This document shows positions 63,549-63,846 of a stretch of DNA of 64,000 nt, one piece after another (within the stretch, counting starts at the first letter, position 1; every line of letters starts with the position of its first letter). The DNA comes from Escherichia coli (GTDB lineage Bacteria; Pseudomonadota; Gammaproteobacteria; Enterobacterales; Enterobacteriaceae): NCBI RefSeq assembly GCF_002854065.1, contig NZ_CP024147.1. One strand, written 5' to 3'. The notes below the pieces were generated by a model. That model ran no database searches, was not told where the DNA came from, and was given only the letters and a program-made list of their open reading frames with translations. Position numbers and translations under genes: made by a program.

Positions 63549-63625
63549 CGCGGGGTGGAGCAGCTTGGTAGCTCGTCGGGCTCATAACCCGAAGGTCGTC
63601 GGTTCAAATCCGGCCCCCGCAACCA
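63549..63625 (+). tRNA. metZ: Initiator tRNA-fMet (CAU), copy 1; D-loop has T where copies 2 and 3 have C
   Basis: CGCGGGGTGGAGCAGCTTGGTAGCTCGTCGGGCTCATAACCCGAAGGTCGTCGGTTCAAATCCGGCCCCCGCAACCA. Confidence 0.95.
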
Positions 63626-63658
63626 ATTAAAATTTGATGAAGTAAAGCAGTACGGTGA

Positions 63659-63735
63659 CGCGGGGTGGAGCAGCCTGGTAGCTCGTCGGGCTCATAACCC
63701 GAAGGTCGTCGGTTCAAATCCGGCCCCCGCAACCA
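63659..63735 (+). tRNA. metW: Initiator tRNA-fMet (CAU), copy 2
   Basis: Canonical tRNA-fMet sequence, AGCAGCCTGG D-loop. Confidence 0.95.
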
Positions 63736-63769
63736 ATCAAAATTTGATGAAGTAAAAGCAGTACGGTGA

Positions 63770-63846
63770 CGCGGGGTGGAGCAGCCTGGTAGCTCGTCGG
63801 GCTCATAACCCGAAGGTCGTCGGTTCAAATCCGGCCCCCGCAACCA
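63770..63846 (+). tRNA. metV: Initiator tRNA-fMet (CAU), copy 3
   Basis: Canonical tRNA-fMet sequence. Confidence 0.95.

What the first reader, a model, noticed from the sequence alone, without database searches (positions are those of the whole stretch)
63549..63846. Three tandem initiator tRNA genes; first copy carries a D-loop C-to-T difference
Three 77-nt tRNA-fMet genes recur at about 110-111 bp spacing with near-identical spacers. Copy 1 reads AGCAGCTTGG in the D-loop where copies 2 and 3 read AGCAGCCTGG. The spacers differ at two positions. This may be a real isodecoder polymorphism or a recombination or sequencing artefact in a repeat array.
Basis: seen in the sequence. Interest (0 to 1): 0.3.

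Follow-up and report, generated by a model that had tools for sequence, protein, structure and literature searches.

The report
E. coli metZWV initiator-tRNA array, C17U allele
This is the well-known three-gene initiator-tRNA operon (metZ-metW-metV) of Escherichia coli; the single C-to-T difference in the first copy is a real, rare allele that has arisen repeatedly at the methylated cytosine of a Dcm site and most likely has no effect on function.

Summary
Three 77-nt tRNA-Met(CAU) genes start at 63549, 63659 and 63770. Copy 1 has T at 63565 (tRNA position 17, D-loop) where copies 2 and 3 have C. The two spacers differ by one substitution and one extra A.

The locus is the E. coli metZWV operon between mltA and amiC. 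Copies 2 and 3 are identical to K-12 tRNAfMet1.

The T is not an isolated assembly error:
- A distinct near-identical genome, CUWW06, also has it.
- 24 of 5,425 complete E. coli genomes carry it in metZ, and 124 carry it in some initiator-tRNA gene, including the unlinked metY.
- Ten metZ-T sequences fall on 8 flank haplotypes, and two of these haplotypes have a C-carrying genome 0-4 SNPs away.

So C-to-T has recurred many times. The changed base is the inner, Dcm-methylated cytosine of CCTGG, the classic 5-methylcytosine deamination hot spot. CUWW06 has intact dcm and vsr.

The U17 RNA is 77/77 identical to initiator tRNA genes of Vibrio, Pectobacterium, Photorhabdus and other genera, and it folds identically. 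It is therefore almost certainly functional.

Position 17 is permissive. An A17 allele is present in 83 genomes, and the four sampled are of one haplotype (the Nissle 1917/ATCC 25922 lineage).

Verdict: an ordinary, known operon carrying a neutral hot-spot allele. Interest is low.

The parts
62243..63340 (-). mltA (murein transglycosylase A), the divergent upstream neighbour of the tRNA operon
   Evidence: Annotation of the identical stretch in CUWW06 and K-12. The start codon (CAT on the + strand) is at 63338-63340.
63508..63539 (+). Putative metZWV promoter: -35 TTGCAT (63508-63513), 16-nt spacer, -10 TATAGT (63530-63535), GC-rich discriminator GCGC (63536-63539)
   Evidence: The sequence is identical to K-12 upstream of metZ. 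It coincides with the metZWV promoter region and primers in PMC3017606. The generic consensus scan did not call it because the -35 matches only 3 of 6. The hexamer assignment is my inference.
63549..63625 (+). metZ, initiator tRNA gene, C17U allele (T at 63565)
   Evidence: Same cloverleaf and same energy (-30.3 kcal/mol) as the canonical copy.
63564..63568 (+). CTTGG: a former Dcm site (CCTGG) whose inner, methylated cytosine is now T
   Evidence: Comparison with copies 2 and 3 and with K-12, O157 and strain 100416. Dcm/VSP background from PMC2715241.
63626..63658 (+). Spacer 1 (33 nt)
63659..63735 (+). metW, canonical tRNAfMet1 gene with an intact Dcm site CCTGG at 63674-63678
63736..63769 (+). 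Spacer 2 (34 nt). It has one more A (ATCAAAATTTG) than most E. coli genomes, a trait shared with CUWW06 and 100416.
63770..63846 (+). metV, canonical tRNAfMet1 gene with an intact Dcm site CCTGG at 63785-63789
63853..63882 (+). Intrinsic terminator of the operon (8-bp stem, 4-nt loop, T-run)
   Evidence: It matches the metZWV 3' primer region in PMC3017606.
63920..64000 (-). 3' end of amiC (runs off the window)
   Evidence: Annotation of the identical stretch in CUWW06

Best explanation
The region is the E. coli metZ-metW-metV operon. Three tandem initiator tRNA(fMet) genes are transcribed from one stringently controlled promoter to one terminator, and they supply most of the cell's initiator tRNA. 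In this strain's lineage the first gene carries C17U in the D-loop. In the ancestral allele the mutated base is the inner cytosine of CCTGG, the base that Dcm converts to 5-methylcytosine. Spontaneous deamination of 5mC gives T directly. If the resulting T:G mismatch escapes Vsr very-short-patch repair before replication, a C-to-T transition is fixed. This has happened repeatedly and independently in all four E. coli initiator tRNA genes. The resulting tRNA is almost certainly fully functional, for three reasons. Position 17 is an unpaired, variable D-loop position. The RNA is identical to the native initiator of many other Gammaproteobacteria. An A17 allele is carried by the Nissle 1917/ATCC 25922 lineage. 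Shown: locus identity, reality and recurrence of the allele, its position in a Dcm motif, presence of dcm and vsr in the nearest genome, and identity to native tRNAs elsewhere. Inferred: that the site is methylated, that deamination caused the change, and that the allele is neutral.
For: Locus identity: synteny mltA-tRNA x3-amiC, with copies 2 and 3 identical to K-12 metW/metV; operon description in PMC3017606. Reality of the allele: the window differs from CUWW06 by 8 SNPs plus an IS1 and a deletion difference, so they are different assemblies, and both have T at metZ. Frequency among 5,425 complete genomes: 24 have T in metZ, 32 after a spacer-1-type flank, 37 after a spacer-2-type flank, 13 in unlinked metY, and 124 in any copy. 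Recurrence: 10 metZ-T sequences fall in 8 upstream haplotypes at least 38 SNPs per 4 kb apart. 203740(T) is 4 SNPs from MG1655(C), and window/CUWW06(T) are 0-1 SNP from 100416(C). Three different downstream structures are seen among carriers. Hot-spot specificity: the adjacent unmethylated C16-to-T is found in 6 genomes, T17a-to-C in 2 and C17-to-G in 0. The other-strand Dcm change G18A, at a universally conserved base, is found in 1. Dcm context: CCTGG to CTTGG is exactly the Vsr substrate context described in PMC2715241, and dcm and vsr are intact in CUWW06. Function: 48 of 129 tRNA genes recovered from other species are 77/77 identical to the window's metZ, the fold and energy are the same, and the Rfam score is the same.
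Against: Methylation of this site was not measured. The dcm gene of the window's own strain lies outside the window. Genome counts are not event counts. The C17A control showed 83 genomes that appear to stem from one clonal origin, so the raw contrast of 124 against 6, 2 and 1 overstates the rate difference. The hot-spot claim therefore rests mainly on the haplotype analysis of 10 sequences. Short-tract recombination or intra-array gene conversion, which demonstrably occurs here, could spread one T allele onto several backgrounds. High transcription of tRNA genes could raise C-to-T on the non-template strand independently of Dcm. Only 1 of 18 SNPs between the window and 100416 lies at a Dcm inner C, which is not by itself a significant enrichment.
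Confidence: 0.75

Rival explanations
1. Sequencing or assembly artefact. One version is a methylation-induced base-calling error at a Dcm motif in long-read data. The other is a consensus error in a 110-nt tandem repeat. Either way, all three copies are really identical.
For: The changed base is the methylated base of CCWGG. Bacterial DNA modification is reported to induce strand-specific errors in nanopore reads (PMC11610603). Tandem repeats are hard to polish with short reads. No reads are available to me.
Against: The same paper reports about 99% base accuracy within CCWGG with current R10.4.1 models. A systematic motif error should hit all three identical copies and many of the window's other Dcm sites. 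Instead, 217 CCWGG sites are intact, and only one inner-C change separates the window from 100416 over 64 kb. T carriers show no excess of inner-C changes in their flanks. The T is shared by two distinct assemblies of the lineage and by 124 genomes overall. metZ adjoins unique sequence 16 nt upstream of the variant, so it is the easiest copy to place.
Confidence: 0.05
2. An ordinary neutral SNP unrelated to Dcm. It arose once or a few times at a permissive D-loop position and was carried to other backgrounds and other copies by homologous recombination and intra-array gene conversion.
For: Position 17 is permissive: A17 occurs in 83 genomes from an apparently single origin. Gene conversion within the array is visible, since A17 is in metW only in Nissle 1917 and in metZ+metW in ATCC 25922. 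E. coli recombines frequently.
Against: T17 lies on 8 of 8 distinct haplotype groups sampled, twice with a C-carrier 0-4 SNPs away. That would require very short transferred tracts each time. It also occurs in unlinked metY. The neighbouring, equally unpaired C16 and U17a vary far less. The change is exactly the transition expected at the methylated base.
Confidence: 0.13
3. An adaptive isodecoder. U17 changes the properties of initiator tRNA, for example through a new dihydrouridine made by DusB or through altered elbow dynamics, and it is favoured in some niches.
For: E. coli DusB makes D17 (PMC5814906). Other Enterobacterales keep mixed C17/U17 genes in the same locus. Initiator tRNA dosage affects initiation fidelity (PMC3017606).
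Against: The allele is rare (2.3% of genomes) and scattered at the tips, with no large clade. Only one of three or four copies is changed in the carriers examined. The DusB paper states that its U17 substrate is always followed by G18, whereas here U17 is followed by U17a, so D17 formation is uncertain. No phenotype data exist.
Confidence: 0.05

Closest known systems
E. coli K-12 metZWV operon (tRNAfMet1 genes metZ, metW, metV; b2814-b2816)
   Same: Same position between mltA and amiC. Same promoter region and terminator. Same three 77-nt genes. Copies 2 and 3 are 100% identical to K-12.
   Different: metZ carries C17U. Spacer 2 is 1 nt longer. There are three flank SNPs relative to MG1655 within 560 nt.
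tRNAfMet2 of E. coli K-12 (metY, A46 instead of m7G46), the classical natural initiator isodecoder
   Same: A single-nucleotide natural variant of the initiator tRNA that coexists with tRNAfMet1 in one cell (PMC3017606; the metY sequence shows the A).
   Different: It affects variable-loop position 46 at the unlinked metY gene, not D-loop position 17 in the array. It is characteristic of K-12 rather than a recurrent hot-spot allele.
Dcm 5-methylcytosine deamination hot spots counteracted by Vsr very-short-patch repair
   Same: C-to-T at the inner C of CCWGG, giving CTWGG, which is the sequence context Vsr recognises (PMC2715241). The lineage carries dcm and vsr. Occurrence is recurrent and independent.
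   Different: The classical cases were defined in protein-coding reporter genes in the laboratory. Here the site lies in the D-loop of an essential, multi-copy tRNA gene and is seen as standing natural variation. Methylation and deamination were not measured here.
Native U17 initiator tRNAs of other Gammaproteobacteria (Vibrio, Pectobacterium, Photorhabdus, Xenorhabdus, Providencia, Shewanella, Edwardsiella, Dickeya, Aggregatibacter)
   Same: The RNA sequence is 77/77 identical to the window's metZ.
   Different: In those species U17 is present in the species' representative genome, with several such genes in some species, rather than being a rare allele.
A17 allele of metW (and metZ) in the E. 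coli Nissle 1917 / ATCC 25922 lineage
   Same: Same tRNA position and same array. It shows that position 17 tolerates change.
   Different: It is a transversion, which deamination does not explain. The four carriers sampled differ by 0-2 nt over 8.3 kb, so the allele appears clonal.

Membership tests
Bacterial initiator tRNA (tRNAfMet) | Anticodon CAU | tested here: met
   ARAGORN reports anticodon cat at position 35 in all three genes.
Bacterial initiator tRNA (tRNAfMet) | No Watson-Crick pair at 1:72 (C1 x A72) | tested here: met
   The sequence is 5' CGCGGGG ... CCCCGCA ACCA 3'. cmscan flags the 1:72 pair as non-standard, and base 1 is unpaired in the fold.
Bacterial initiator tRNA (tRNAfMet) | Three consecutive G:C pairs (29:41, 30:40, 31:39) at the bottom of the anticodon stem | tested here: met
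   The stem UCGGG/CCCGA is seen in the sequence and in the fold. The feature is described in PMC3017606 and PMC5389676.
Bacterial initiator tRNA (tRNAfMet) | Formylation by Fmt and direct P-site binding | not testable with these tools
   This needs biochemistry. It is inferred from identity to K-12 tRNAfMet1 (copies 2 and 3) and to native initiators of other species (copy 1).
metZWV operon of E. coli | Three tandem tRNAfMet genes between mltA and amiC under one promoter and one terminator | tested here: met
Dcm 5mC deamination hot spot | The changed base is the inner C of CCWGG and the change is C to T | tested here: met
   CCTGG in copies 2 and 3 and in 97.7% of genomes, against CTTGG in copy 1.
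Dcm 5mC deamination hot spot | The organism encodes Dcm (and Vsr) | tested here: met
   dcm and vsr are intact in CUWW06, which is 8 SNPs per 64 kb from the window. The window's own dcm locus lies outside the 64 kb.
Dcm 5mC deamination hot spot | The site is actually methylated in vivo | not testable with these tools
   This needs bisulfite, EM-seq or nanopore modification calls.
Dcm 5mC deamination hot spot | Recurrent independent mutation, in excess of neighbouring comparable sites | tested here: met
   8 haplotypes among 10 metZ-T sequences, and all four loci affected. C16T is found in 6 genomes, T17aC in 2 and C17G in 0. Caveat: these are genome counts, and the events behind the control alleles were not counted.
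Dcm 5mC deamination hot spot | The mutation rate depends on dcm and rises in vsr mutants | not testable with these tools
   This needs genetics.
Motif-linked sequencing artefact | Excess of inner-C changes at many CCWGG sites of the same assembly, and all identical copies affected | tested here: not met
   There are 217 intact CCWGG sites in the window. One inner-C change separates it from 100416 in 64 kb, and only one of three copies is changed. The flanks of other carriers are clean.

The most novel reading that the evidence does not exclude
U17 tRNAfMet is a third natural E. coli initiator isodecoder with a distinct modification state, such as D17 made by DusB, or distinct elbow dynamics. 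It would measurably shift initiation efficiency or fidelity. A Dcm hot spot would then act as a recurrent 'mutational switch' that generates this variant, and Vsr-biased gene conversion would erase it.
Probability: 0.05. Interest if true: 0.5.

Novelty: already known. Interest (0 to 1): 0.2.

Why it matters
The practical value is small. First, the difference should not be 'corrected' in assemblies, because it is real standing variation. Second, it is a clean natural example of a Dcm/5mC hot spot inside an essential, multi-copy tRNA gene. The opposite-strand change (G18A) is almost absent, which fits purifying selection on G18. Third, together with the A17 allele of the Nissle 1917 lineage, it shows that D-loop position 17 of the bacterial initiator tRNA is free to vary. 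That is useful to people who engineer initiator tRNAs or use metZWV as a typing or integration landmark.

Tried and rejected
- The generic sigma-70 scan found no promoter. I rejected this as a true negative because the known metZWV promoter has a weak -35; I located it by identity to K-12 and the published primers.
- A weak Rfam hit, AaHKsRNA82 at 63844-63920 on the minus strand, scored 24.4 bits against a gathering score of 51.4, E = 0.56. It overlaps the terminator and I dismissed it as chance.
- I first assumed the window was strain CUWW06 itself, from 100% identity over 560 nt and 21.5 kb. The full comparison shows 8 SNPs, an IS1 difference and a 1.9-kb deletion, so they are different isolates.
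- I first read the genome counts (124 against 6, 2 and 1) as rate differences. The C17A control (83 genomes, one haplotype in four sampled) showed that counts reflect clade size, so I moved the weight of the argument to the haplotype analysis.
- D17 formation by DusB was considered, but it is left as speculation because the DusB paper says U17 substrates are followed by G18.
- Cherry 2018 (J Bacteriol 200:e00371-18) on methylation-induced hypermutation could not be read. It is known to me only from its citation.
- Searches (bad reference syntax; faulty regular expression) produced nothing.

Full report
**Observation.**
ARAGORN finds three tRNA-Met(CAT) genes at 63549-63625, 63659-63735 and 63770-63846 on the + strand, and no other tRNA in the window. 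Rfam's tRNA model scores 61.4 bits for each. Tandem Repeats Finder reports a 110-nt period, 2.7 copies and 98% matches. Reading the sequence confirms that copy 1 has AGCAGCTTGG where copies 2 and 3 have AGCAGCCTGG. The difference is at window 63565, tRNA position 17 in the D-loop.

**Identity of the locus.**
A 560-nt query matches 5,425 of 5,426 complete E. coli genomes. In all annotated relatives the array lies between mltA and amiC. In K-12 MG1655 the three genes are metZ, metW and metV, annotated 'tRNA-initiator Met(CAU)'. Copies 2 and 3 are identical to the K-12 genes.

The sequence has the hallmarks of a bacterial initiator: C1xA72, three G:C pairs closing the anticodon stem, A11:U24 and CAU. 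The promoter region and terminator coincide with the metZWV knockout primers published in PMC3017606. That paper also describes the operon, its dosage role and its ppGpp control. An intrinsic terminator is predicted at 63853-63872.

**Is the T real?**
- The window is not any genome in the collection. Its best match, CUWW06 (wastewater, Thailand), differs by 8 SNPs, an IS1 insertion and a 1.9-kb deletion over 64 kb. The next best, strain 100416 (Gambia), differs by 18 SNPs.
- The window and CUWW06 both have T at metZ; 100416 has C.
- An 80-nt query centred on the variant, with metZ's unique 5' flank, is matched perfectly in 24 genomes.
- The 77-nt U17 tRNA is matched perfectly somewhere in 124 genomes.
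- Context-specific queries place T after a spacer-1-type flank in 32 genomes, after a spacer-2-type flank in 37, and in the unlinked metY gene in 13.

**Recurrence.**
I fetched eight further metZ-T carriers and six C-carrying references with 4-kb flanks. The ten T sequences fall into eight upstream haplotypes that differ by at least 38 SNPs per 4 kb. Strain 203740 (T) is 4 SNPs from MG1655 (C). The window and CUWW06 (T) are 0-1 SNP from 100416 (C).

Carriers also differ in what follows metV, which is amiC, a PTS island or a type VI secretion island, and in copy number. The same C-to-T has therefore arisen many times, or has been moved in very short tracts.

**Mechanism.**
The ancestral pentamer is CCTGG, a Dcm site, and the changed base is its inner cytosine, the one Dcm methylates. 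Deamination of 5-methylcytosine yields T. The T:G mismatch in CTWGG/CCWGG is the specific substrate of Vsr very-short-patch repair, and C-to-T at these cytosines is a classical hot spot (PMC2715241; also cited as a screening rule in PMC10710837). CUWW06 has intact dcm and vsr.

Controls on the same 77-nt gene gave these counts of genomes with a perfect match:

| Change | Genomes |
|---|---|
| C17 to T (inner, methylated C) | 124 |
| C17 to A | 83 |
| C16 to T (outer, unmethylated C) | 6 |
| U17a to C | 2 |
| G18 to A (other-strand methylated C; G18 is a universally conserved base) | 1 |
| C17 to G | 0 |

**A caveat found by the controls.**
The C17-to-A result needs care. The four A17 carriers I sampled (Nissle 1917, ATCC 25922, UPEC 26-1, M16807) differ by only 0-2 nt over 8.3 kb, so this looks like one clonal origin. 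Genome counts therefore measure clade size and not mutation rate. My hot-spot argument rests on the polyphyly of T17, not on the raw numbers.

The A17 clade is still informative in two ways. It shows that position 17 is permissive. It also shows intra-array gene conversion, because A is in metW only in two strains and in metZ plus metW in the other two.

**Artefact hypothesis.**
DNA modification can cause nanopore errors, although current models read CCWGG at about 99% accuracy (PMC11610603). A motif-linked artefact should affect all identical copies and many other Dcm sites. The window has 217 intact CCWGG sites. Only one inner-C change (63565) is among the 18 SNPs that separate it from 100416. 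The flanks of other T carriers show no excess of such changes. I rate the artefact at about 5%, but I could not inspect reads.

**Function.**
Both versions fold into the same cloverleaf with the same minimum free energy, -30.3 kcal/mol, and both score identically against Rfam. Of the 129 tRNA genes recovered, 48 are 77/77 identical to the window's metZ. They come from Vibrio, Pectobacterium, Photorhabdus, Xenorhabdus, Providencia, Shewanella, Edwardsiella, Dickeya, Brenneria and Aggregatibacter, and some loci mix C17 and U17 genes. The 'variant' is thus a native initiator tRNA elsewhere, and it is very likely neutral in E. coli.

Whether the new U17 becomes dihydrouridine through DusB is uncertain. 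DusB is the D17 synthase, but its described substrates have G18 immediately after U17, and here U17a intervenes (PMC5814906).

**Comparison and novelty.**
The operon is textbook. Dcm hot spots and VSP repair are textbook. Natural initiator isodecoders are known (K-12 metY A46). I did not find the U17 or A17 alleles described in the papers searched, but they are visible in public genomes. They amount to a modest population-genetic footnote.

**Verdict.**
The allele is explained by a known mutational mechanism, which I give about 0.7-0.75 confidence. Functional consequence is unlikely, and interest is low.

Noticed in passing
Other E. coli genomes: L146-L149 (Nissle 1917, M16807, UPEC 26-1, ATCC 25922), tRNA genes at locus 3991-4287: A different allele at the same tRNA position, C17A, gives a perfect match in 83 complete genomes. 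The four sampled carriers share one haplotype (0-2 nt differences over 8.3 kb). A17 is in metW only in two of them and in metZ+metW in the other two, which is a visible intra-array gene conversion.
   Followed up: partly
window ~20675-21460 and the junction at 21460/21461: There is an IS1 copy here. Immediately to its right the window lacks 1,928 bp that both nearest relatives (CUWW06 and 100416) have, carrying LemA/TPM-domain gene fragments. This looks like an IS1-adjacent deletion.
   Followed up: partly
window 16027-16035: CUWW06 has an extra IS1 inserted in ygcW that the window lacks. The 9-nt overlap of the BLAST blocks marks the target-site duplication. Likewise, 100416 has an IS421 near window ~3050 that is absent from the window.
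   Followed up: partly
window 3208-3364 (-): There is a sok antitoxin RNA (Rfam 105 bits), with a Hok/Gef gene annotated in the relatives, between iap and cysH. Neither close relative has cas genes annotated between iap and cysH, and Tandem Repeats Finder reports no repeat array anywhere in window 1-63500.
   Followed up: no
window 40318-40677 (-), 58858-59063 (+), 62079-62121 (-): The known small RNAs CsrB (384 bits), GcvB (199 bits) and ES036/CssrF (46.5 bits, inside mltA) are present. All are ordinary for this E. coli region.
   Followed up: no
Downstream of metV in other E. coli: L131-L137, L141, L146-L149: The site just after metV is variable. amiC follows directly in some strains. Others have a PTS / phosphoglycerate-dehydrogenase island or a type VI secretion island. 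Array copy number ranges from 1 (strain 118UI) to 4 (TUM9757).
   Followed up: partly
NZ_CP024134.1 (strain 14EC017) 990777-990853: One genome has an initiator tRNA gene with G18A. This is the change expected from deamination of the other-strand Dcm cytosine, but it falls at the universally conserved G18. It may be a defective copy or an error.
   Followed up: no
window 63739-63742 (spacer 2): The run ATCAAAATTTG has one more A than in MG1655, O157 and most other genomes examined. Among the sequences examined with this spacer type, the extra A is shared only with CUWW06 and 100416, so it is a small lineage marker. Spacer 2 shows further allelic forms in other phylogroups.
   Followed up: partly
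window 18732: The window has CCAGA where both close relatives have the Dcm site CCAGG. This change is at the outer position, not the methylated one.
   Followed up: no
L011, L020, L037, L044, L111, L123 (Vibrio hannami, Photorhabdus spp., Enterobacter sp. Ag1, Xenorhabdus ehlersii): These loci of other species carry both C17 and U17 initiator tRNA genes side by side, so mixed arrays like the one in the window also exist outside E. coli.
   Followed up: no
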